Shown: positions 3,097 to 50,913 of the stretch, one piece after another
Numbering within the stretch: the first letter of the stretch is position 1
Layout: each line of letters opens with the position of its first letter
Assembly (NCBI GenBank): GCA_963728765.1
Contig: CAVSKX010000004.1
Location: forward strand, 470,137-534,136
Direction: 5' to 3'
Length of the DNA stretch: 64,000 nt
From: an uncultured Actinomycetes bacterium
GTDB taxonomy: Bacteria > Actinomycetota > Thermoleophilia > Gaiellales > Gaiellaceae
Notes under the pieces: model-generated
What the model was told of the DNA's origin: nothing
Database searches by the model: none
The model's input: only the letters and a program-made list of their open reading frames with translations
Position numbers and translations under genes: made by a program

Positions 3097-3460
3097 CGTA
3101 CCGGCAAGGCCGGCACGGCCTCTTCTGGTCGGCGTCGCAAGCAACGCCTTGGCAGCGCGAGCGTGGCCATCAGGCGTGACTTCTGCTCGTCACGCCCGTT
3201 TCCTGGTGCCAGAGCGGCCGTACGGGCCAAGCCCGCACGTCCTGAAGCGGCGCCGACAAGCGGCGCCTTAGCCGGACGCACGGGCGAAGCCCGGGCGTCC
3301 TCTTCTGGTCGGCACCGACAAGCGGCGCCTTAGCCGTACGCACGGGCGAGGCCCGTGCGTCCTCTTTTTGGTCGGCGCCGACAAGCGGCGCCTTAGCCAG
3401 ACGCACGGGCGAGGCCCGTGCGTCCTCTTTTGGGTCGGCGCCGACAAGCGGCGCCTTAGG
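3097..3460 (+). repeat. Tandem array of two-hairpin units: three near-perfect copies (period 62-63 bp) plus about three degenerate copies
   Basis: Unit = GACGCACGGGC-GAG-GCCCGTGCGTC, then CCTCTTTT(T)GGTC, then GGCGCC-GACAAGC-GGCGCC, then TTAGCC. Unit starts are at about 3274, 3336 and 3399; degenerate units lie at 3097-3273. The last unit supplies the sepF stop codon (TTA at 3456-3458 on +). Confidence 0.9.
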
Positions 3461-4635: not shown

Positions 4636-5317
4636 CCTGCCTGCCGGTGAGGCCGTCGTCTCGCCGGTGTGAGAAGAAACGGTCGGGGTTGCATGCGGTG
4701 CAGAGGTCGACGCGGTCGACTCGCACACAGCCGGCGGCGCGAAGCGCCCGCTCCGCAGCCGACCAGAGGTCGAGCCTCCCGTCCTGCACCAAACCGAGCC
4801 CGAAGGCGCTGCGGTACCGCGAAGCCACCTCCTCCCCCACGTCGTAACAGCACGGCCCGATCCCCGGGCCGATCACCGCCGCCACGAGCCCGCCGTCCAG
4901 CGCCGCGACCCCCGACGCGGCGATCCCGCCGAGGAGCCCGCGCCAGCCCGCGTGCAGGACCGCCAGCGCGGGCTCGCGGCCGTTCGCCCGCGCGAGCGCG
5001 ATCGGCAGGCAGTCGGCCGCCAGCGCCAGCACAGGCACGCCGCGCTCGTCCGTCCAGAGGCCGTCGGCGCGCTCGGCGCGAGCGCCCGGCCGTGCCTTCA
5101 CGACATCGGCGGAGTGGTGCTGGTAGTTCATCGAGAGTGCATCGGGGTCGGCGCCCGCCTCCGCGCAGAGCCGCCGCCTGTTCTCGTCGACCCGCTCGGG
5201 CTCGTCCGCGGTCGCGCGGCCGAGGTTGAGCGAGGCGAACGGCCCCTCGCTGACACCTCCCTCGCGGGTCGAGAAGACGACGTCGTACGGCCCCGGCGCG
5301 TTCTCCCAGCGGATCAC
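4613..5317 (-). CDS. pgeF: PgeF/YfiH (YlmD, DUF152) family protein
   Basis: 234 aa with VVFSTREGGVS, ADCLPI, HAGWRG, CTACNPDRFFSHRRD motifs. GTGA overlap with the upstream gene. Confidence 0.85.
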   Translation of the reverse strand: MIRWENAPGPYDVVFSTREGGVSEGPFASLNLGRATADEPERVDENRRRLCAEAGADPDALSMNYQHHSADVVKARPGARAERADGLWTDERGVPVLALAADCLPIALARANGREPALAVLHAGWRGLLGGIAASGVAALDGGLVAAVIGPGIGPCCYDVGEEVASRYRSAFGLGLVQDGRLDLWSAAERALRAAGCVRVDRVDLCTACNPDRFFSHRRDDGLTGRQGVLGVIG

Positions 5318-7875
5318 TGCGCGATCAGCTCCTGGGCTGCCGCCAGCTCGGAGTCGCGGCCGTCGAGCTCGCCGTTCAGCTTGCGGCGCCGCAGTTCGGC
5401 GAGGACCTCCCCGACACGCGGCGACTCCGCGAGGCCGAGCTCGGCGAGGTCGCTGCCGCTCACCTCCAGGCGCACGTCGCGCAGGCGCTCGAAGTACTGG
5501 TGCAGCTGCGGCACGTCGGCGAGCGCCAGCGCGAACAGCGGGGCGTCGGGGGCGTACCGGTCGGCGAGCGCGACGACCCCCGCGGGATCCGTCGCCTCGC
5601 GCAGCCGCTCGACGAGTCGCGGCCCTACGGTCACCGCGGCCGCGATCGCGTCGGCCTCGCGCCGGCGCACCTTCAGCCGCTGGAGCCAGTCGTAGGCCTC
5701 GTCGGCGGGCAGCTTCCGCGCGAGCGCGGCCAGCCCGAGCCGCCAGGACGGTACGGCGAGGCCGTAGCGGTCGCGCAGCTCCCGTAGCCGTGCAAACAGC
5801 TCGACCGCCTCCGCGTCGGCCGCCAGGTGCGGGTGAATCGCCCGGTCCGCACCGAGCTCGGCGAGCCGCAGGATCGAGTGCTCGGCCTCGCGCTCCTCCA
5901 GCAGCGCGACGAGCTCGTCGCGCAGCCGCGCCGAGGAGAGGTCGCCGACGAGCCCCATCTCGATCGTCCCGCGCGCGAGGCGCACCGTGTGCTCGTCCAT
6001 CCGGAAGCCGTAGCGGTTCTCGTAGCGGATCCCGCGGAAGATGCGAGTCGGGTCGTCGATGAACGAGAGGTTGTGCAGGACGCGGATCCGCCGCGCGTCG
6101 AGGTCGCGCCGCCCGCCGAAGGGGTCGACGAGCCGACCGAGGTCTTCCCCCCGCAGCGAGACCGCCATCGCGTTGACGGTGAAGTCGCGCCGGAAGAGGT
6201 CCTCGCGGATCGAGGCGTGCTCGACCGTCGGCAGCGCCGCCGGTGCGTCGTAGAACTCGGTGCGAGCCGTCACCACGTCGACGCGGCGACCGTCGCCGTA
6301 GAGCACGACCGCGGTGCCGAACTTCTCGTGGGGGCGGACGCGCCCGCCGAGCACCTCCGCGAGCGCCTGCGCGAGCGCGATCGCGTCACCCTCGACCGCG
6401 ATGTCCACGTCGAAGCTCTGCTCCCCGAGCAGGATGTCGCGCACGGTCCCGCCGACGAGGTAGACGCCCTCGAACGGCTCCGACACGGCGGCGACTGCGT
6501 CGAAGACCGCCTGCAGCCGCTCGAGCCGCCCGAGCTCGTCCGTGAGCAATGGGCCGGGCGCGCGCTCCGCCTCCGCCTGCTGGCCGAGCGCCTGGAGAAC
6601 GTCGCTGCGCGTCACGACGCCGACCACGCGCTGGTCGCTCAAGACCGCAACGCGGTCGCCGCCGGCCGCGAGCAGGCGCTGGAGCTCGCCGAGCGGTGTT
6701 TCCTCGTCACAGGTCGCGACGCGGCCGCTCATGATTCCCTTCACCGGCGCGTGCGACAGGCCGTGCGACACGGCGCGATCGAGGTCCTCGCGGCCGACGA
6801 CGCCTTCGAGACGGCCGTCCGTGGCGACGAGGATCCCGCTCTGGCCGTAGCGCTGGCAGGTCACCAGAGCGCTCGCAACCGTGTCGTCGGGCGAGACCGT
6901 CCGCGGGGGGCTCGACATGATCTCGGCCGCGGACGGAAGCTCCCGCACTGCGCTCTGCAGGCCTGCCAGCAGCCGCTCCTTCGCCGGCCCGAGCCGACCC
7001 CTGAAGATCGCGGAGGCCGCCTCCGGATGCCCGCCCCCGCCGAGCGCCCCCGCGAGGCGCGAGGCGTCGAGCTCCGGAGTGCGGCTGCGCGTGACGCAGA
7101 AGACGCGCTCCTCCATCTCGACCAGTAGCGCGAGGGCCTTCGTGTCGGTCAGGTCGACCACCTTGTGCGCGAGATTCGAGACGCCGTCGACGTAGCGCGG
7201 CCACTCGACCGCGCCCACGAGCAGCTCGACCCCGGCGACCTCGTGCGGCTCGAGCGCGTCGAGCAGCGCCCCGAGCAGCTCGCGCTCGTCCTCGGTCAGC
7301 GGCGAGTGGAGGAACTGCGCGAGCAGCTCCTGCCGCGCGCCGTGGCGCAGGCACCACGCGAGCGCCTCGGCGTCGCGCTGCGTGGCGCTCGGGTACGTGA
7401 GCGAGCCCGTGTCCTCGTGGATGCCGAGCGCGAACGCCGTTGCCTCGAGCGGCGTGACCGCGAGCTCACGCTCGGCGAGCACGCCGACAAGCGTCGTCGT
7501 CAGCGCGCCGTCGGCGGAGAGGATCGTGTGCTCCTCCCCCGCCCACTCCGGTGCCTCGCCGCCGTGGTGGTCGAAGACGATCGCGTCGACGTTCGGGTCC
7601 AGCGCGACCCCTTCGAGCTCCCCAAGCCGGCTCGCATGGGTGGTCTCGACGACGATCAGGCGACGGATCGCGTCCGTCTCCAGCCTTGTTGCCTCGACGA
7701 GGCCGAGCTCGTCCGCGTGCAGGCGGTAGAACTCGCGCACGTTGCGGTTCAGCGAGCCCGAGAGGCAGACGACGGCGTCCGGGTAGAGCCGCCGCGCGGC
7801 GAGCATCGCCGCGAACGCGTCGAAGTCGGTGTTGCCGTGGGTCGCGATGACCGTCTCGGCCCTCATGCGGCCCAT
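5314..7875 (-). CDS. Fusion protein: DHH/DHHA1 domain + tandem CBS + class II nucleotidyltransferase (CCA-adding / poly(A) polymerase family)
   Basis: The last ~853 aa of the 1050-aa ORF. DHH: VIATHGNTDFDAF ... VFDHHGG. DHHA1: GGGGHPEAAS. Two CBS modules. Nucleotidyltransferase head: VYLVGGTVRDILLG..FDVDIAVEG and RRDFTVNAMA. The N-terminal 197 aa of the ORF are Arg-rich and overlap ridA, so the start is placed at ATG 7875 (or 7866). Confidence 0.8.
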   Translation of the reverse strand: MGRMRAETVIATHGNTDFDAFAAMLAARRLYPDAVVCLSGSLNRNVREFYRLHADELGLVEATRLETDAIRRLIVVETTHASRLGELEGVALDPNVDAIVFDHHGGEAPEWAGEEHTILSADGALTTTLVGVLAERELAVTPLEATAFALGIHEDTGSLTYPSATQRDAEALAWCLRHGARQELLAQFLHSPLTEDERELLGALLDALEPHEVAGVELLVGAVEWPRYVDGVSNLAHKVVDLTDTKALALLVEMEERVFCVTRSRTPELDASRLAGALGGGGHPEAASAIFRGRLGPAKERLLAGLQSAVRELPSAAEIMSSPPRTVSPDDTVASALVTCQRYGQSGILVATDGRLEGVVGREDLDRAVSHGLSHAPVKGIMSGRVATCDEETPLGELQRLLAAGGDRVAVLSDQRVVGVVTRSDVLQALGQQAEAERAPGPLLTDELGRLERLQAVFDAVAAVSEPFEGVYLVGGTVRDILLGEQSFDVDIAVEGDAIALAQALAEVLGGRVRPHEKFGTAVVLYGDGRRVDVVTARTEFYDAPAALPTVEHASIREDLFRRDFTVNAMAVSLRGEDLGRLVDPFGGRRDLDARRIRVLHNLSFIDDPTRIFRGIRYENRYGFRMDEHTVRLARGTIEMGLVGDLSSARLRDELVALLEEREAEHSILRLAELGADRAIHPHLAADAEAVELFARLRELRDRYGLAVPSWRLGLAALARKLPADEAYDWLQRLKVRRREADAIAAAVTVGPRLVERLREATDPAGVVALADRYAPDAPLFALALADVPQLHQYFERLRDVRLEVSGSDLAELGLAESPRVGEVLAELRRRKLNGELDGRDSELAAAQELIAQ

Positions 7876-7924
7876 TCTGCCTTCGGGCCCGGGAGAAAGC
7901 GGCGCATTTCCGGCACCCTCACGG

Positions 7925-7982
7925 CACAGACACGTGCGCCCACGCGCTGTACGCTCGCCTCGGGGAGGAGGCCGGGCGAACC
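7925..7982 (+). promoter_or_regulatory. Bipartite intergenic element R1 (14-mer, 11-nt spacer, TACGCT, G-rich box)
   Basis: CACAGACACGTGCG-N11-TACGCT-CGCCTCGGGGAGGAGGCCGGGCGAACC. It is essentially identical to 41238-41295 outside the spacer. The geometry is CAGACA, 17 nt, TACGCT. Confidence 0.5.
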
Positions 7983-8003
7983 CTCCCGAGACCACGCCGA
8001 AGC

Positions 8004-8399
8004 TCAGCCGGCCAGCGCGATCGCCTCGATCTCGACCTTCGCGCCCGACGGCAGCGCAGCGACCTCGATCGTCGCGCGCGCGGGCGGGGCGTCGCCGACG
8101 TGACGCGCGTAGACCTCGTTCATCCCGCCGAAGTCGCCCAGCTCGGTGAGGTAGACCGTCGTCTTCACGAGCCGGTCGAGCCCGCTTCCGGCCGCCTCGA
8201 GAATCGCACGCAGGTTCGCGAAGACCTGCTCGGTTTGCTCCGTGATCGAGTCGCCGACGATCTCCGCGTGGTCGGGGCGCAGCGAGAGCTGCCCCGAGAC
8301 GAAGACCAGGCCACCCGCGCTGATCGCCTGCGAGTACGGCGCCCCCTGGAACGGCGCCGGCGCCGCCTCGGTGCGGACGACGGACTTCTCTGCCATCAC
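8004..8399 (-). CDS. ridA: RidA/YjgF-family reactive-intermediate deaminase
   Basis: 131 aa: APFQGAPYSQAI..GGLVFVSGQL ... VKTTVYL ... ARATIEVAALPSGAKVEIEAIA. Start is GTG 8399 or ATG 8396. Confidence 0.9.
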   Translation of the reverse strand: MMAEKSVVRTEAAPAPFQGAPYSQAISAGGLVFVSGQLSLRPDHAEIVGDSITEQTEQVFANLRAILEAAGSGLDRLVKTTVYLTELGDFGGMNEVYARHVGDAPPARATIEVAALPSGAKVEIEAIALAG

Positions 8400-15737: not shown

Positions 15738-15812
15738 CACACACGCGTGCGTCGAAGACGGGTACCGTCGACCGCGGAGGGAGGCGGGCTAGAGCCCCAC
15801 CCTCGGGTGGGG
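15738..15812 (+). promoter_or_regulatory. Bipartite intergenic element R5 plus C-rich/G-rich hairpin
   Basis: CACACACGCGTGCG-N11-TACCGT-CGACCGCGGAGGGAGGCGGGCTAGAG, followed by CCCCACCC-TC-GGGTGGGG. Same geometry as R1-R4. Confidence 0.45.
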
Positions 15813-40027: not shown

Positions 40028-41152
40028 TCACACTGGCGACAGCGGCAAGACGTCCTCGAGCGGGTGGAAGTCGAGCCCGTGCGCGTCCGCGACAGCCTCG
40101 TACGTGACCTTGCCGTCGAGCACGTTGACGCCGCGCGCCAGAGCGCGGTCACGCGCGACGGCCTCCGCAAGCCCGTGGCCGGCGATCGCCTCGACGTACG
40201 GCAGCGTCACGTTTGTGAGCGCCTTCGTCGACGTGATCGGAACCGCGCCCGGCATGTTCGCGACGCAATAGTGCGTTACACCGTCGACGACGTAGACGGG
40301 CTCGCTGTGTGTCGTCGGGCGCGAGGTCTCGGCGCTCCCGCCCTGGTCGATCGCGACATCGGCGAGGACGGCGCCGTCCTTCATCTGCGCGACCATCTCG
40401 CGCGTCACGAGCTTCGGCGCCACGGCGCCGGGGATCAGGACGGCGCCGATTACGACGTCGGCCTCCGCGACCGACTCCTCGATCTGCAGCGACGACGACA
40501 TCACGAGGCTGACCCGGCCCGACAGGATCTCGTCGAGGTGACGCATCCGGTCGACCGAGCGCTCGAGGATCGTCACGTTCGCGCCGAAGCCCAGCGCGAT
40601 GATCGCAGCGTTGTAGCCGACGATCCCGCCGCCGATCACGAGCACGCGGCCGGGCGCCACTCCCGGCACGCCGCTGAGCAGCAGGCCGCGGCCGCCAAGC
40701 GGCTTCTCGAGGAAGTACGCGCCGGCCTGCGCCGCCAGCCGGCCGGCGATCTCGCTCATCGGAGCCAGCAGCGGCAGCGCGCCGTTGTCCGTCTCGACCG
40801 TCTCGTAGGCGACGCACGCTGCGCCGCTCTCGGCGAGCGCTCGGGTGAGCTCCTCGCTCGCCGCGAGGTGGAGGTAGGTGAAGAGGACGAGGCCCTCGTG
40901 GAGACGTGGGTACTCGTCGGGCAGAGGCTCCTTCACTTTCAGCAGGAGCTCGGAATCGCGCCAGACCTCGTCGACGGACGCGAGCGTGGCGCCGACCGAG
41001 CTGTAGGCGTCGTCCGGGAAGGAGCTGCCTTCGCCGGCGCCTGTCTCGACGACCACGTCGTGCCCGCCCTGAACGAGCTCCCGCGCGCCCGCGGGCGTCA
41101 GCGCGACGCGGTACTCGTCGGACTTGATCTCCTTGACGACTCCGACCTTCAT
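40028..41152 (-). CDS. ald: Alanine dehydrogenase
   Basis: Starts at M17 of ORF 40028..41200 (MKVGVVKEIKSDEYRVALTP). NAD motif VIGGGIVG. Confidence 0.95.
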   Translation of the reverse strand: MKVGVVKEIKSDEYRVALTPAGARELVQGGHDVVVETGAGEGSSFPDDAYSSVGATLASVDEVWRDSELLLKVKEPLPDEYPRLHEGLVLFTYLHLAASEELTRALAESGAACVAYETVETDNGALPLLAPMSEIAGRLAAQAGAYFLEKPLGGRGLLLSGVPGVAPGRVLVIGGGIVGYNAAIIALGFGANVTILERSVDRMRHLDEILSGRVSLVMSSSLQIEESVAEADVVIGAVLIPGAVAPKLVTREMVAQMKDGAVLADVAIDQGGSAETSRPTTHSEPVYVVDGVTHYCVANMPGAVPITSTKALTNVTLPYVEAIAGHGLAEAVARDRALARGVNVLDGKVTYEAVADAHGLDFHPLEDVLPLSPV

Positions 41153-41237
41153 CGGGGCGAGAAACCCTAGCTTCTCGGCGCTTGGCCGATGTCGAGACAC
41201 GCCGTGGACGGTCCGTCACAGATCAGGCACGAAGCGT

Positions 41238-41332
41238 CACAGACACGTGCGGCGGCGCCGAATATGCTCGCCTCGGGGAGGAGGCCGGGCGAACCGTAGT
41301 GAGGAGCGGCCGAGAGAGAACGGGGTGGCAGC
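41238..41332 (+). promoter_or_regulatory. Bipartite intergenic element R2 with an extended tail
   Basis: CACAGACACGTGCG-N11-TATGCT-CGCCTCGGGGAGGAGGCCGGGCGAACC, then CCGTAGT ... GAGAGAGAACGGGGTGGCAGC, ending 15 nt from the upstream stop codon. Confidence 0.5.
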
Positions 41333-41347: not shown

Positions 41348-42292
41348 TTACGCGCCAGCTGGGCGGAGCAGGCTGCGGGCTGCGACGCCTGCACCGTAGG
41401 CCGCCGCGAAGAAGTCCGGATCTTCGTCCGGCCCACGGCCCATGTGCGAGAGCGGCAGTCCCGCGCACGCCTCGCGCCAACCGCCCGATGGTTCCGCAAC
41501 CACGACCTCGCCGCGCACGAGCGCGAGCACGGCCTCTGTGTGGTGGGATCTCCCCCGGTGCCGGTCCCGCTCATCGGCGACGGAAATCCGCTGCGCGACG
41601 ACCGGCAAGCCGCCGAGCGAAAGTACCGCGTTCGCCGAGTCTGCAGCCGCGAGGCCGCCGTGGCCGAAGCGCGTCCCGGTCCCGACGATCCCCGGGCCAA
41701 CCGAGCAGACGGCTACGTCGTGCTCCCCGCGGGCCCAGAGAAGGGCCGAGGCCGGTGAGACGCATTGCACCTCCGCGTCGAAGCACGGCGCCACCGCCGC
41801 GGTCGAGGCCAGCAAGCCGCGCTCCCGCAGCGTCCGCACCGTGTCCGACAGCGACACCGGCAGTGCGCCGCCTGCGAGCTGCAGGTACGCGACGCGCAAC
41901 CCCTCCAGCGCCGCGCACACCGGCGAGACCTGGCTGTGGAGCGAGCAGCAGACGACCGGCATCCCCTCCAAGGCGTCCGCACTCTCCCCCGCCTCCTCCG
42001 CATGGACACGCGCGTGCTGGAGCGGCGTGTACGGCAGGACCATCACGTGCGCCCCTTCCTCGGCCGCGAGCTCGAGGCCGCGCGTCAGGTTCGCGTAGAG
42101 AACGTCGAACCCGCCGCTGCCGAGCTCGAGCTCCCACGCCTGCACGTTCACCAGCACCTCGTCCTCGAGCGCGACCGGCCCCGTGACCGTCGGGTAGGCG
42201 ACGCAGGCGACCCCGTCGACCTCCAGCCGTACGAAGGCGTCGTGCCGCTCGCGTATAGCGGTGACGCGGCCGCGCCGCAGGCTAAGCGCCAC
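41348..42292 (-). CDS. Conserved hypothetical protein (DUF3866-like, recalled from memory)
   Basis: 314 aa. N-terminal pattern RRGRVTAIRERHDAFVRLEVDGVACVAYPTVTGPVALEDEVLVNVQAWELELGSGGFDV. Confidence 0.6.
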   Translation of the reverse strand: MALSLRRGRVTAIRERHDAFVRLEVDGVACVAYPTVTGPVALEDEVLVNVQAWELELGSGGFDVLYANLTRGLELAAEEGAHVMVLPYTPLQHARVHAEEAGESADALEGMPVVCCSLHSQVSPVCAALEGLRVAYLQLAGGALPVSLSDTVRTLRERGLLASTAAVAPCFDAEVQCVSPASALLWARGEHDVAVCSVGPGIVGTGTRFGHGGLAAADSANAVLSLGGLPVVAQRISVADERDRHRGRSHHTEAVLALVRGEVVVAEPSGGWREACAGLPLSHMGRGPDEDPDFFAAAYGAGVAARSLLRPAGA

Positions 42293-50858: not shown

Positions 50859-50913
50859 CCCCTGGGTGGGTGGGGGTTAGGGACGGTACCGGTCGTGAGC
50901 GCACGAGTGTGTG
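50859..50913 (-). promoter_or_regulatory. Bipartite element R4: promoter-like half conserved, C-rich instead of G-rich downstream box, sense to recN
   Basis: Minus strand: CACACACTCGTGCG-N11-TACCGT-CCCTAACCCCCACCCACCCAGGGG. Confidence 0.45.

What the first reader, a model, noticed from the sequence alone, without database searches (positions are those of the whole stretch)
7925..7982. Bipartite promoter-like intergenic element family (copy R1) that I cannot assign to any known family
7925-7982 (+) reads CACAGACACGTGCG / cccacgcgctg / TACGCT / CGCCTCGGGGAGGAGGCCGGGCGAACC. The copy at 41238-41295 matches 14/14, 5/6 and 27/27 positions in the three blocks but only 4/11 in the spacer. So the blocks are conserved, not the whole segment. 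Diverged copies at 15738, 31728 and 50913 (reverse strand) keep the same geometry: 14-mer, 11 nt, TANNNT. On the + strand this is a sigma70-type promoter (CAGACA, 17 nt, TAYGCT). Yet every neighbouring gene is on the - strand. The predicted RNA would begin in the G-rich box and run antisense into the ridA 3' end (stop 22 nt away). Alternative readings are a C-rich, anti-SD-like (CCUCCUCCCC) UTR element on the - strand mRNA, or an operator about 50 nt upstream of the nucleotidyltransferase gene. From memory it does not match ydaO, glycine, yybP-ykoY, SAH, ykkC or 6C RNAs.
Basis: seen in the sequence. Interest (0 to 1): 0.7.

Follow-up and report, generated by a model that had tools for sequence, protein, structure and literature searches.

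The report
Conserved promoter cassette with G-rich start
The element is one copy of a widely conserved, previously undescribed promoter cassette of the soil actinobacterial family Gaiellaceae; it starts a short non-coding RNA with an invariant G-rich, ribosome-binding-site-like 5' end whose function is still unknown.

Summary
R1 (7925-7982) and R2 (41238-41295) share 14/14, 5/6 and 27/27 positions. The relaxed motif hits five times in the window against 0.01 expected.

Database scans show a lineage-wide cassette. More than 118 exact copies of the 14-mer motif lie almost only in Gaiellaceae/Thermoleophilia genomes. More than 120 copies of the G-box occur in soil metagenomes.

Anatomy: four tandem 11-bp direct repeats (G[TG]CAC..TTTC), 5 bp, -10 TAnnnT, 6 bp, then the G-box GGGGAGGAGGCCGGGCGAACC at the predicted start.

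The same promoter sits 6-8 nt before leaderless start codons and about 30 nt before SD-led genes elsewhere. So + strand promoter activity is well supported. The "-35" reading is not.

The G-box is locked to the -10 in 104 of 107 copies. It recurs at conserved sites, including ridA/nucleotidyltransferase, usually with no gene to drive.

It has no hairpin fold and no Rfam match. It reads as a start-less Shine-Dalgarno and is G-quadruplex-prone.

Best reading: an activator-type promoter making a short non-coding RNA whose 5' end is the functional part. The mechanism is inferred, not shown.

The parts
7901..7944 (+). R1: four tandem 11-bp direct-repeat units (GGCGCATTTCC / GGCACCCTCAC / GGCACAGACAC / GTGCGCCCACG). 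Presumed binding array for a transcription activator.
   Evidence: Unbiased logo from 104 G-box-selected copies: G.caC.ctTTC / GgcaC..ttcC / GTcACAGACAC / GtGCGcctttC. Same upstream consensus in 121 copies selected by the 14-mer. Sequence read.
7950..7955 (+). R1: -10 hexamer TACGCT (TAnnnT type), 5 bp after the last repeat unit.
   Evidence: TAnnnT lies 6 nt before the G-box in 104 of 107 copies, mostly TACGCT or TACGAT. The same hexamer position precedes leaderless start codons by 5-8 nt in other loci.
7956..7961 (+). R1: discriminator CGCCTC, predicted not to be transcribed but conserved within the G-box class.
   Evidence: Pairwise identity is 0.92 in the main G-box class against 0.41 over all promoters of the family. 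Information content is 0.9-2.2 bits per position.
7962..7982 (+). R1: G-box GGGGAGGAGGCCGGGCGAACC, with the predicted transcription start at 7962-7963. It is a start-less Shine-Dalgarno-like, G-tract-rich 5' end of a non-coding RNA. At R1 the complementary CCCTCCC follows at 7981-7987.
   Evidence: 27/27 identity with R2. Fixed phase to the -10. No start codon or ORF follows. A G-quadruplex is predicted from G3G4/G6G7/G9G10/G13G14. No excess hairpin structure.
8004..8399 (-). ridA (Ribonuc_L-PSP). It converges on the predicted R1 transcript, and its stop codon lies 22 nt after the G-box.
   Evidence: Pfam E=7.7e-38. The same ridA / cassette / nucleotidyltransferase arrangement appears in about 15 other contigs.
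5314..7875 (-). DHH-CBS-PolyA_pol nucleotidyltransferase gene, divergent from R1. Start is at 7866 or 7875. A -10-like CAGAAT (7879-7874) lies 7 nt before the ATG at 7866 (inference).
   Evidence: Pfam PolyA_pol 7.6e-29, CBS 3.6e-20, DHH and DHHA1. The block CATTCTGCC is largely conserved, invariant at ATT and TGCC, in the alignment of orthologous spacers.
41214..41295 (+). R2: second main-type cassette. Repeats 41214-41257, -10 TATGCT 41263-41268, G-box 41275-41295. It lies between DUF3866 (41348-42292, -) and ald (40028-41152, -).
   Evidence: Orthologous copies in L029, L080, L197, L126 and L138 have the same flanking genes.
15738..15812 (+). R3: same promoter type (14-mer 15738-15751, -10 TACCGT 15763-15768). 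It drives a different G-rich class: G-tract 15776-15788, then hairpin CCCCACCC/GGGTGGGG at 15795-15812. It lies between dnaE (C-terminal part) and a GH15 gene, both on the - strand.
   Evidence: The same class occurs in L005, L070 and L105.
31728..31789 (+). R4: same promoter type (14-mer 31728-31741, -10 TAGGCT 31753-31758). It drives the class GGCAGGGGGGCGGGTCGGGACCC (31765-31789). It lies between glyS and the PPDK-regulator (Kinase-PPPase) gene, both on the - strand.
   Evidence: Orthologous copies in L075 and L103, and the same class before mqnA and purN elsewhere.
50860..50913 (-). R5: same promoter type on the - strand (14-mer 50913-50900, -10 TACCGT 50888-50883), followed by a C-rich leader. 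It lies about 100 nt upstream of recN. recN has its own leaderless-type -10 (TAGCAT 50785-50780) 6 nt before GTG 50773.

Best explanation
R1 is one copy of a vertically inherited transcription cassette that is specific to Gaiellaceae and related Thermoleophilia.

**Layout.** Four 11-bp-phased direct repeats (G[TG]CAC-N2-TTTC) stand where a -35 would be. They are followed by 5 bp, a TAnnnT -10, a 6-bp conserved discriminator and then the invariant G-box at the transcription start.

**How it most likely works.** The steps are marked as shown or inferred.
1. A sigma-70-family holoenzyme uses the -10 and fires on the + strand. The use of this promoter type is shown by gene geometry in homologous copies. 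Actual start sites are not mapped.
2. A winged-helix, OmpR/PhoB-type activator bound head-to-tail to the repeats recruits the polymerase. This is inferred from the 11-bp direct-repeat architecture only.
3. Transcription starts at 7962-7963 and yields a short non-coding RNA. Its first 10 nt, GGGGAGGAGG, form an extended Shine-Dalgarno sequence with no start codon. Its first 15 nt can form a two-layer G-quadruplex.
4. I judge, at about 40%, that this 5'-terminal G-box is the functional part and acts on the RNA itself. It would dock 30S subunits through the anti-SD, or fold as a G-quadruplex, at the extreme 5' end. That would protect or mark the transcript, like a 5' stabiliser.
5. At R1 the transcript runs antisense into the ridA 3' end and away from the nucleotidyltransferase gene. 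It could therefore modulate the two neighbours by antisense pairing or transcriptional interference. This is inferred.

**Confidence.** The figure of 0.5 is for the whole statement. The + strand promoter part alone I put near 0.85, the response-regulator-type activator near 0.5, and the RNA-level role of the G-box near 0.4.
For: **Promoter.**
- The exact motif precedes leaderless starts by 5-8 nt and SD-led genes by 26-30 nt. Pfam matches begin within the first few profile positions of these proteins: SSB, L28, GARS_N, VitK2_biosynth and DZR_2.
- Leaderless -10 elements elsewhere have the same TAnnnT-N6/7-start geometry.

**Repeats.**
- An 11-nt register is seen in two independently selected sets.
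- Published MtrA sites are direct repeats of GTCACAgcg, or GtnAcC-n5-GTnAcn (PMC13189361 and PMC2945938).

**G-box coupling and conservation.**
- 104 of 107 G-box copies have the -10 exactly 6 nt upstream.
- Flanking spacers have diverged (pairwise identity 0.40-0.44) while the box is invariant.
- The cassette recurs at at least 13 syntenic sites across many contigs. Examples are ridA/NT, DUF3866/ald, ftsI/murE, and next to ribE, tilS, pntA, purD and hutH.

**Non-coding and independent.**
- No same-strand ORF follows at R1-R4 or in most copies.
- Where a same-strand gene follows (purD, hutH, hisC, recN), it has its own leaderless -10.

**G-rich start as a class feature.**
- 73 of 121 promoters carry four G-tracts within +1..+35. 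The C-rich equivalent occurs in 5 of 121, and the background rate is 2.2%.
- A 5' G-quadruplex appears in the minimum-energy fold of 48 of 121, against 1-2 of 121 in controls.

**SD identity.** Genes driven by this promoter use GAAAGGAGG or GGAGGAG before the ATG. The G-box decamer is AGAAAGGAGG with three A-to-G changes that keep G-U pairing. The 16S tail sequence used for this comparison is from memory.
Against: - No transcript data exist, so the start site, the RNA length and even expression are predictions.
- The discriminator (-6..-1), which should not be transcribed, is also conserved (0.92). Strict conservation ends near +21, roughly the downstream edge of an RNA polymerase footprint. 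This fits a DNA-level role at least as well.
- The G-quadruplex and SD readings explain G-tracts and AGGAGG. They do not explain why CCGGGCGAACCG is invariant.
- The other G-rich classes (R3 and R4 types) are not SD-like.
- No enrichment of terminator-like hairpins follows the box.
- No activator is identified. The one candidate tested, MtrA, shows no repeat array upstream of its own gene in six of seven loci.
Confidence: 0.5

Rival explanations
1. The G-box works as DNA. The conserved block from -6 to about +21 is part of an extended promoter or operator. It could be a repressor or roadblock site over the start, or an initially transcribed or non-template-strand element. Such an element would control open-complex stability, escape or pausing, or recruit an elongation factor as the ops element recruits RfaH. 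The RNA would be a by-product. The cassette would then regulate its neighbours through the shared activator array, divergent-promoter coupling or transcriptional interference.
For: - Fixed 6-bp phase to the -10 in 104 of 107 copies.
- The untranscribed discriminator is conserved.
- Strict conservation stops near +21 and decays to background by +36.
- The RNA body downstream is not conserved even between orthologous copies.
- The cassette nearly always lies 20-90 nt from the start of a divergent gene, or 60-100 nt upstream of a gene's own leaderless -10.
- The strong G-over-C strand asymmetry fits a non-template-strand G-quadruplex as well as an RNA one.
Against: - The block is neither palindromic nor repeat-like, as most operators are. 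The arms CGCCTCGG/CCGGGCG do not co-vary in variant copies.
- Weaker conservation continues to about +35 (GwACTamGGGACC), beyond a polymerase footprint.
- The first decamer is exactly the lineage's SD sequence, which a DNA role does not predict.
Confidence: 0.28
2. The cassettes are genes for a multi-copy family of trans-acting small RNAs. Their conserved single-stranded 5' end is a seed that pairs with C-rich partners. Possible partners are the 16S anti-SD tail (a ribosome sponge or decoy), C-rich regulatory RNAs of the 6C type, or CCUCC-containing mRNAs.
For: - Many dispersed loci share an invariant 5' end with variable 3' parts, as in sRNA families with a 5' seed.
- The 5' decamer is about half unpaired in ensemble predictions.
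- The cassettes are independent transcription units even next to purD and hutH.
Against: - No conserved terminator or RNA body.
- Convergent genes begin only 20-60 nt after the start, leaving no room for a discrete sRNA gene.
- No excess of complementary sites in the window.
- No 6C or other known partner RNA in the window or in 18 loci.
Confidence: 0.15
3. The functional strand is the - strand. The C-rich complement (GGUUCGCCCGGCCUCCUCCCC) would be an intercistronic element of the ridA-nucleotidyltransferase transcript. It could be an anti-SD-like sequestrator or a Rho-loading (rut) site that ends the upstream gene's transcript.
For: - R1-R4 and most other copies lie between two genes of the opposite strand, just after the stop codon of the upstream one.
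- The complement is C-rich and G-poor.
- At R1 it can pair with GGGAGGG to form a hairpin after ridA.
Against: - The box is tied to a + strand -10 at fixed phase.
- It also occurs with a divergent gene upstream and a same-strand gene downstream, where no - strand transcript is expected.
- The - strand fold is not better than shuffles (z = -0.82).
- The R1 hairpin partner is absent from orthologous copies.
Confidence: 0.05
4. The copies are remnants or ends of a mobile element (a MITE or IS end) that carries an outward promoter.
For: Dispersed near-identical short blocks occur in intergenic DNA, five of them in 64 kb.
Against: - Similarity is limited to 61 nt, with a diverged spacer and no flanking homology or inverted repeats.
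- No transposase lies nearby.
- Each copy sits at the same orthologous site in many genomes, with copy-specific -10 variants: TATGCT at ald, TACGCT or TACGAT at ridA.
Confidence: 0.02

Closest known systems
Response-regulator-dependent promoters of the OmpR/PhoB family: pho boxes, and the MtrA boxes of Actinobacteria (GTCACAgcg direct repeats; GtnAcC-n5-GTnAcn)
   Same: Both have tandem direct repeats with an 11-bp period and a GTnAC-like core. The repeats replace the -35 and end just upstream of a TAnnnT -10. Unit 3 here (GTCACAGAC) matches 7 of 9 positions of the mycobacterial MtrA motif.
   Different: There are four units with a TTTC tail. The proximal 14 bp is much more conserved than known RR boxes. 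The regulator is unknown. The MtrA gene of this lineage lacks the array upstream in six of seven loci. The cassette is locked to a conserved transcribed box, which pho and MtrA regulons are not.
STAB-SD and other 5' mRNA stabilisers of Bacillus: a Shine-Dalgarno-like sequence near the 5' end that binds 30S without initiating translation
   Same: A perfect SD (AGGAGG within GGGGAGGAGG) lies at the 5' end of a transcript, with no start codon at initiation distance.
   Different: Here the SD is the very first nucleotides of the RNA. It is followed by a further 11-25 conserved nucleotides. It is multi-copy, and most copies have no downstream gene to stabilise. The stabilising effect is untested.
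5'-terminal or non-template-strand G-quadruplex elements
   Same: Four G-tracts with 1-2-nt loops lie within +3..+15. This feature is shared by the otherwise unrelated G-rich classes behind the same promoter, 73 of 121 copies.
   Different: The loop bases are invariant within a class, which a quadruplex alone does not require. Folding is only predicted by an energy model.
   Same: Short conserved intergenic sequence in an actinobacterium.
   Different: There is no hit at gathering thresholds in the window or in 18 related loci. Only chance-level hits (E of 3.5 or more) appear around R1. There is no conserved secondary structure. 6C is C-rich, so the G-box could at most be a partner of such an RNA, not a member of the family.
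RfaH ops-type elements: a short conserved non-template-strand signal in leaders of many operons
   Same: A multi-copy, orientation-specific, unstructured, G-rich conserved box lies shortly after promoters.
   Different: ops elements lie at variable distance inside leaders of long operons. The G-box is fixed at +1, and most copies have no operon downstream.

Membership tests
Sigma-70-family (group 1) promoter | A -10 hexamer of the actinobacterial TAnnnT type at the right distance from transcript starts | tested here: met
   TAnnnT is present in 104 of 107 G-box copies. The same hexamer lies 5-8 nt before leaderless ATG/GTG starts of comM, comF and small proteins, and 26-30 nt before SD-led ssb and a secreted protein.
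Sigma-70-family (group 1) promoter | A -35 hexamer resembling TTGACA, 16-18 bp upstream | tested here: not met
   The consensus scan finds no site. CAGACA matches 4 of 6 and is embedded in an 11-bp repeat register.
Sigma-70-family (group 1) promoter | An experimentally mapped transcription start | not testable with these tools
OmpR/PhoB-type (MtrA-like) activator site | Head-to-tail direct repeats with a period of about 11 bp and a GTnAC-like core | tested here: met
   Four units in register in two independently selected sets. Published motifs were read.
OmpR/PhoB-type (MtrA-like) activator site | Autoregulatory site upstream of the regulator's own gene (expected for MtrA) | tested here: not met
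   Six Gaiellaceae mtrA-mtrB-lpqB loci (L239-L244) have only a leaderless -10 and no repeat array. One locus (L083) has a divergent cassette.
OmpR/PhoB-type (MtrA-like) activator site | Binding by the protein | not testable with these tools
   Needs EMSA, DAP-seq or ChIP.
Structured cis-regulatory RNA / riboswitch (any Rfam family) | A match to a curated covariance model | tested here: not met
   No hits at gathering score in the window or 18 loci. Around R1 only E of 3.5 or more.
Structured cis-regulatory RNA / riboswitch (any Rfam family) | Conserved secondary structure more stable than chance | tested here: not met
   R1 RNA z = +1.77. Over 104 copies the mean z is 0.02. Individual minimum-energy folds are inconsistent. 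The candidate helix AGGY/RCCU is absent from the commonest type.
5' stabiliser of the STAB-SD type | An SD-complementary sequence near the 5' end with no start codon at initiation distance | tested here: met
   AGGAGG at +5..+10 with no ATG/GTG/TTG within the next 12 nt. The lineage's real SDs read GAAAGGAGG or GGAGGAG. The 16S tail itself could not be checked because no rRNA is in hand.
5' stabiliser of the STAB-SD type | 30S binding and increased RNA half-life | not testable with these tools
   Needs toeprinting and decay assays.
G-quadruplex element | Four G-tracts of at least 2 with short loops, strand-specific enrichment, and predicted folding | tested here: met
   73 of 121 on the sense strand, 5 of 121 for the C-rich equivalent, 2.2% background. 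A quadruplex is in the minimum-energy fold of 48 of 121 against 1-2 of 121 controls. Physical folding is untested.
Trans-acting sRNA gene | A discrete transcript with its own terminator | tested here: inconclusive
   No intrinsic-terminator match at R1. Hairpins after the box are no stronger than in control DNA. Many actinobacterial terminators lack U-tails, so this does not exclude one.
Mobile element end / MITE | Terminal inverted repeats, extended homology, a transposase, or variable insertion sites | tested here: not met
   Only a 61-nt direct similarity. Positions are syntenic across contigs. No transposase lies among the flanking genes.

The most novel reading that the evidence does not exclude
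The G-box cassettes are a new kind of regulatory RNA unit. They would be promoter-locked, start-less Shine-Dalgarno / G-quadruplex 5' ends, made from tens of dispersed and mostly gene-less transcription units per genome. They would dock or titrate 30S subunits, or a C-rich partner RNA, and so couple a global response-regulator signal to ribosome availability or to the expression of neighbouring housekeeping genes (murE, ald, ribE, purD, tRNA nucleotidyltransferase).
Probability: 0.2. Interest if true: 0.8.

Novelty: new variant of a known kind. Interest (0 to 1): 0.6.

Why it matters
Gaiellaceae are among the most abundant soil Actinobacteria, yet almost nothing is known about how they control genes.

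This cassette gives a precise, testable promoter architecture for the lineage. It consists of four 11-bp repeats, a TAnnnT -10 and a start 7 nt later. That can be used at once to annotate promoters, leaderless genes and a probable global regulon in hundreds of metagenome-assembled genomes.

The invariant G-rich, SD-identical box is fixed at +1 and conserved at the same intergenic sites across many genomes. Most copies have nothing to express. That pattern is unusual.

If the box acts through the ribosome's anti-SD, or as a 5' G-quadruplex, it would be a new way of stabilising or marking transcripts, or of titrating ribosomes. If it acts as DNA, it would be a rare case of sequence-specific selection on the whole initially transcribed region.

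Either way it points to conserved antisense or divergent transcription inside housekeeping clusters such as ftsI-murE.

Tried and rejected
- **Rfam.** The whole window and 18 related loci at gathering score, and the R1 region at E up to 10, gave nothing meaningful.
- **Secondary structure.** Single-sequence folds are inconsistent. R1 RNA is less structured than shuffles, and the family mean z is 0.02. The - strand fold is not significant. The small helix AGGY/RCCU co-varies in minor variants but is missing in the main type, so I dropped it.
- **Terminators.** No consensus hits at R1 and no hairpin enrichment after the box.
- **Coding potential.** No start codon after the SD-like box and no conserved frame or stop.
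- **mRNA leader idea.** I first read purD, hutH and hisC as G-box-led mRNAs. These genes carry their own leaderless -10 next to the start codon, so the cassette is a separate upstream unit.
- **DNA-damage or competence regulon.** This was suggested by ssb, recN, comM and comF. I rejected it because the promoter also drives purD/purN-adjacent units, mqnA, hemD, gatA, pntB, rpmB and priA.
- **General housekeeping promoter.** Rejected. Only five sites occur in 64 kb even with 4 mismatches. Non-seeded sites occur at about one per 80-180 kb in related DNA.
- **MtrA as the regulator via autoregulation.** Not supported.
- **Complementary targets in the window.** At chance level.
- **16S 3' end.** Not present in any sequence held.
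- **Source genome.** The exact RidA protein is not on record.
- **Literature.** No relevant paper contains the 14-mer or the G-box; the single sequence match was in an unrelated mouse neuroscience paper. The one full-text search for promoter or start-site work on Thermoleophilia returned no paper mentioning that class among the eight listed.
- **Mobile element.** Rejected.
Full report

Yes. The + strand at 7925-7982 reads CACAGACACGTGCG / cccacgcgctg / TACGCT / CGCCTCGGGGAGGAGGCCGGGCGAACC. The copy at 41238-41295 is identical in the 14-mer and the 27-mer, differs at one position of the hexamer, and shares 4 of 11 spacer bases.

- The 27-mer occurs twice with up to 3 mismatches, against 0.00 in shuffles.
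That pattern was built from those copies.
- Allowing four mismatches in the 14-mer adds no sixth site.
- The only similarity between R1 and R2 that the repeat finder sees is 61 nt long (family D11).

- R1 lies between ridA (8004-8399) and a DHH-CBS-PolyA_pol nucleotidyltransferase gene (5314-7875).
- R2 lies between a DUF3866 gene and ald.
- R3 lies between dnaE and a GH15 gene.
- R4 lies between glyS and the PPDK-regulator gene.
- All of these genes are on the - strand.
- R5 is on the - strand, between the NAD kinase gene and recN.

**2. The family outside the window**

- 116 carry Thermoleophilia, Gaiellales, Gaiellaceae or unrefined Actinomycetes/Actinomycetota/Actinobacteria MAG titles.
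- One, labelled Gemmatimonadales, carries the same cassette and glycosyltransferase gene as a Gaiellaceae contig, so it is probably mis-binned.
- One Desulfovibrio hit lies inside a gene and looks like chance.

What follows the TAnnnT differs between loci, and this is informative.
- **Leaderless genes.** In about ten loci a long ORF with high third-position GC starts 5-8 nt after the hexamer. These are comM (Mg_chelatase), comF (DZR_2), a conserved 76-aa protein and an 87-aa protein.
- **SD-led genes.** In others an SD and ATG follow at 26-30 nt. These are ssb and a secreted protein.
- **Start codons are real.** Pfam matches begin within the first few profile positions.

This is the geometry of a working -10 with a start about 7 nt downstream. 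The same geometry appears at the -10 elements of unrelated leaderless genes, namely mtrA, hutH, purD and recN.

The genes served are functionally mixed. They include priA, mqnA, gatA, pntB, hemD and rpmB. The motif is therefore neither a single-pathway regulon nor the general housekeeping promoter.

In DNA fetched for other reasons, additional sites occur at only about one per 80-180 kb. That means tens per genome. The window, with five in 64 kb, is locally dense.

**3. Anatomy**

To see the promoter without conditioning on the 14-mer, I scanned metagenomes for the 21-nt G-box.

Of 107 distinct copies, 104 have TAnnnT exactly 6 nt upstream, usually TACGCT or TACGAT. An 11-nt spacer and a 14-mer variant precede it, most often CACAGACACGCGCG, GACAGACACGTGCG or CACAGACACGTGCG.

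Laid out in an 11-nt register, the consensus is:
- G.caC.ctTTC / GgcaC..ttcC / GTcACAGACAC / GtGCGcctttC
- then CccGa-TACGmT-CGCCTC-GGGG.

The set selected by the 14-mer shows the same upstream units.

These occupy about -63 to -20. 'CAGACA' is not an independent -35. In R1 the units are 7901-7911, 7912-7922, 7923-7933 and 7934-7944.

**4. The G-box**

*Position and class.* Forty-two of 121 promoters selected by the 14-mer carry GGGAGGA[AG]G (GGGAGGAGG in 41 of them, GGGAGGAAG in L053) starting at the 8th base after the hexamer, and in 40 of the 42 a further G precedes it at the 7th base. Twenty-two carry the full main type. The predicted RNA therefore begins GGGGAGGAGG(CC/TT/CT/TC)GGG.

*Extent of conservation.* Conservation continues, more weakly, as GAACCGwACTamGGGACC to about +35. 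It reaches background by +36.

*Not coding, not structured.*
- No start codon lies at initiation distance and there is no conserved frame.
- Folds are inconsistent. R1 is less structured than its shuffles (z = +1.77). The family mean z is 0.02.

*Two sequence-level properties stand out.*
- The first decamer is the lineage's own SD (GAAAGGAGG or GGAGGAG before real genes). It differs from AGAAAGGAGG only by A-to-G changes, which would keep G-U pairing to a standard 16S tail. The tail sequence is from memory. No rRNA was available to check it.
- G-richness just after the start is a property of the whole promoter class, not only of this box.
  - 73 of 121 have four G-tracts within +1..+35.
  - Only 5 of 121 have the C-rich equivalent, and 2.2% of background windows do.
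  - ViennaRNA's quadruplex model puts a 5' G-quadruplex in the minimum-energy fold of 48 of 121, against 1-2 of 121 controls. R1, R2 and R3 are among the 48.
  - R3 (G-tract plus CCCCACCC/GGGTGGGG hairpin) and R4 (GGCAGGGGGGCGGGTCGGGACCC) belong to other recurrent G-rich classes behind the same promoter.

**5. Genomic context**

G-box cassettes sit at the same orthologous intergenic sites in many contigs. Each site keeps its own -10 variant and has a diverged spacer. This points to old paralogues kept by selection, not recent transposition. The sites are:
- ridA / cassette / nucleotidyltransferase (R1, about 15 contigs)
- DUF3866 / cassette / ald (R2)
- ftsI / cassette / murE
- next to ribE, tilS, pntA, a LysR gene and alaS
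- upstream of purD, hutH and hisC

Most copies have no same-strand ORF within 250 nt, and a convergent gene ends 20-60 nt after the box. Nearly all have the start of a divergent gene 20-90 nt upstream of the repeats.

Where a same-strand gene follows, it has its own leaderless -10 beside the start codon. Examples are GGGATACACT-N6/7-ATG for hutH, GAGTAGACT-N6-GTG for purD and TAGCAT-N6-GTG for recN. The cassette is therefore an independent unit even there.

Downstream of about +35, orthologous copies diverge. No terminator signal stands out.

**6. What R1 is and how it most likely works**

*Shown by sequence and comparison.* R1 is a complete copy of this cassette, in the orientation that works as a promoter elsewhere. 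No gene lies downstream of it. It is divergent from the nucleotidyltransferase gene and convergent with ridA.

*Inferred.*
1. Transcription starts at 7962-7963.
2. The four repeats bind a winged-helix response regulator that substitutes for a -35 contact.
3. The RNA is short, or it runs antisense into ridA.
4. The invariant 5' end is the functional part.

My preferred mechanism, at about 40%, is an RNA-level role at the extreme 5' end. This would be 30S docking through a start-less SD, or a two-layer G-quadruplex, that protects or marks the transcript. Effects on ridA and the nucleotidyltransferase gene would follow through antisense pairing or transcriptional interference.

The main rival, at about 28%, is a DNA-level role. 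The untranscribed discriminator is conserved too (0.92). Strict conservation ends near +21. The phase to the -10 is fixed.

A trans-acting sRNA family with a 5' seed has about 15%. A - strand function (anti-SD or rut) has about 5%. A mobile origin has about 2%.

**7. Comparison with what is known**

- **Promoter half.** It works like OmpR/PhoB-type promoters. Published MtrA sites are direct repeats of GTCACAgcg or GtnAcC-n5-GTnAcn (PMC13189361, PMC2945938). Unit 3 here is GTCACAGAC.
- **MtrA membership is not established.** The lineage does have an mtrA-mtrB-lpqB operon. Sources name the protein MtrA, and the third gene has Germane and Gmad2 domains. One locus (L083) has a cassette divergent from it. 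Six other loci have only a leaderless -10 and no repeats.
- **G-box half.** It resembles a STAB-SD 5' stabiliser and 5' G-quadruplex elements in sequence logic only.
- **Rfam.** It matches no family.
- **Literature.** Neither block appears in any relevant paper in the held literature.

**8. Verdict**

The finding is real and not previously described. It is a lineage-wide promoter cassette with an unusual conserved start region, and it is often gene-less and antisense to its neighbours.

The promoter reading is well supported. The function of the G-box is not, and it needs 5'-end mapping and the mutational tests listed under next steps. I rate it a new variant of a known kind, with moderate to high interest.

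Noticed in passing
window 3248-3459: A tandem array of a 63-nt unit, 3.4 copies at 93% identity, lies between two - strand genes. Each unit holds a strong hairpin (GGACGCACGGGCGAGGCCCGTGCGTCC) followed by TCTTTTTGG. That looks like an intrinsic terminator on the + strand, the strand without genes here. Each unit also repeats the last codons and stop of the gene ending at 3456.
   Followed up: partly
window 50785-50771, 41169-41150; loci L044, L099, L100, L118, L239-L244: Many genes have a bare TAnnnT 6-7 nt before the start codon and no recognisable -35. Examples are recN (TAGCAT-N6-GTG), hutH, purD and mtrA. ald is similar but has TAGGGT 11 nt before its ATG. The lineage appears to rely heavily on leaderless or near-leaderless mRNAs.
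   Followed up: partly
window 15776-15812 (R3); L007, L016, L032, L013, L046 and others: A second recurrent class follows the same promoter. It has a 5' G-tract (GGGTGGCGGGTGG, GAGGGCGGCGGG or GGAGGGAGGCGGG), then the hairpin CCCCACCC-N3-GGGTGGGG. The 5' G-tract could compete with the 3' arm for the C-tract, which would give a switch-like arrangement. The class occurs both as orphans and upstream of pntB and an ABC-transporter gene.
   Followed up: no
window 50852-50841 (R5 leader); L032, L041, L064, L085, L105: The motif GCGCGCGTGAAC, or alternating (CG)n stems, recurs shortly after the G-rich hairpins. In some loci it encloses an SD-like AAGGG in the loop just before the start codon.
   Followed up: no
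L174 1741-1761: This is the only clear G-box copy without a promoter. It lies 172 nt downstream of a normal cassette on the same strand. It is preceded by a strong hairpin (CACGGGGGAACCAGGGGTTTCCCCGTG) instead of a -10.
   Followed up: no
L003 (CAVRWY010000008.1): A contig labelled Gemmatimonadales carries the same cassette and downstream glycosyltransferase gene as Gaiellaceae contig L031. It is probably a binning error in that MAG.
   Followed up: no
window as a whole, compared with loci L001-L238: The window holds five promoter copies in 64 kb. DNA around other copies holds only about one extra copy per 80-180 kb. Either this region is a local cluster or this genome has more copies than its relatives.
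   Followed up: partly
L136, L137, L142, L143, L171, L188, L199, L213, L219, L227: A G-box cassette is conserved in the ftsI-murE spacer of the cell-division and cell-wall gene cluster. It points backwards into ftsI, always 92 nt from the murE start.
   Followed up: no
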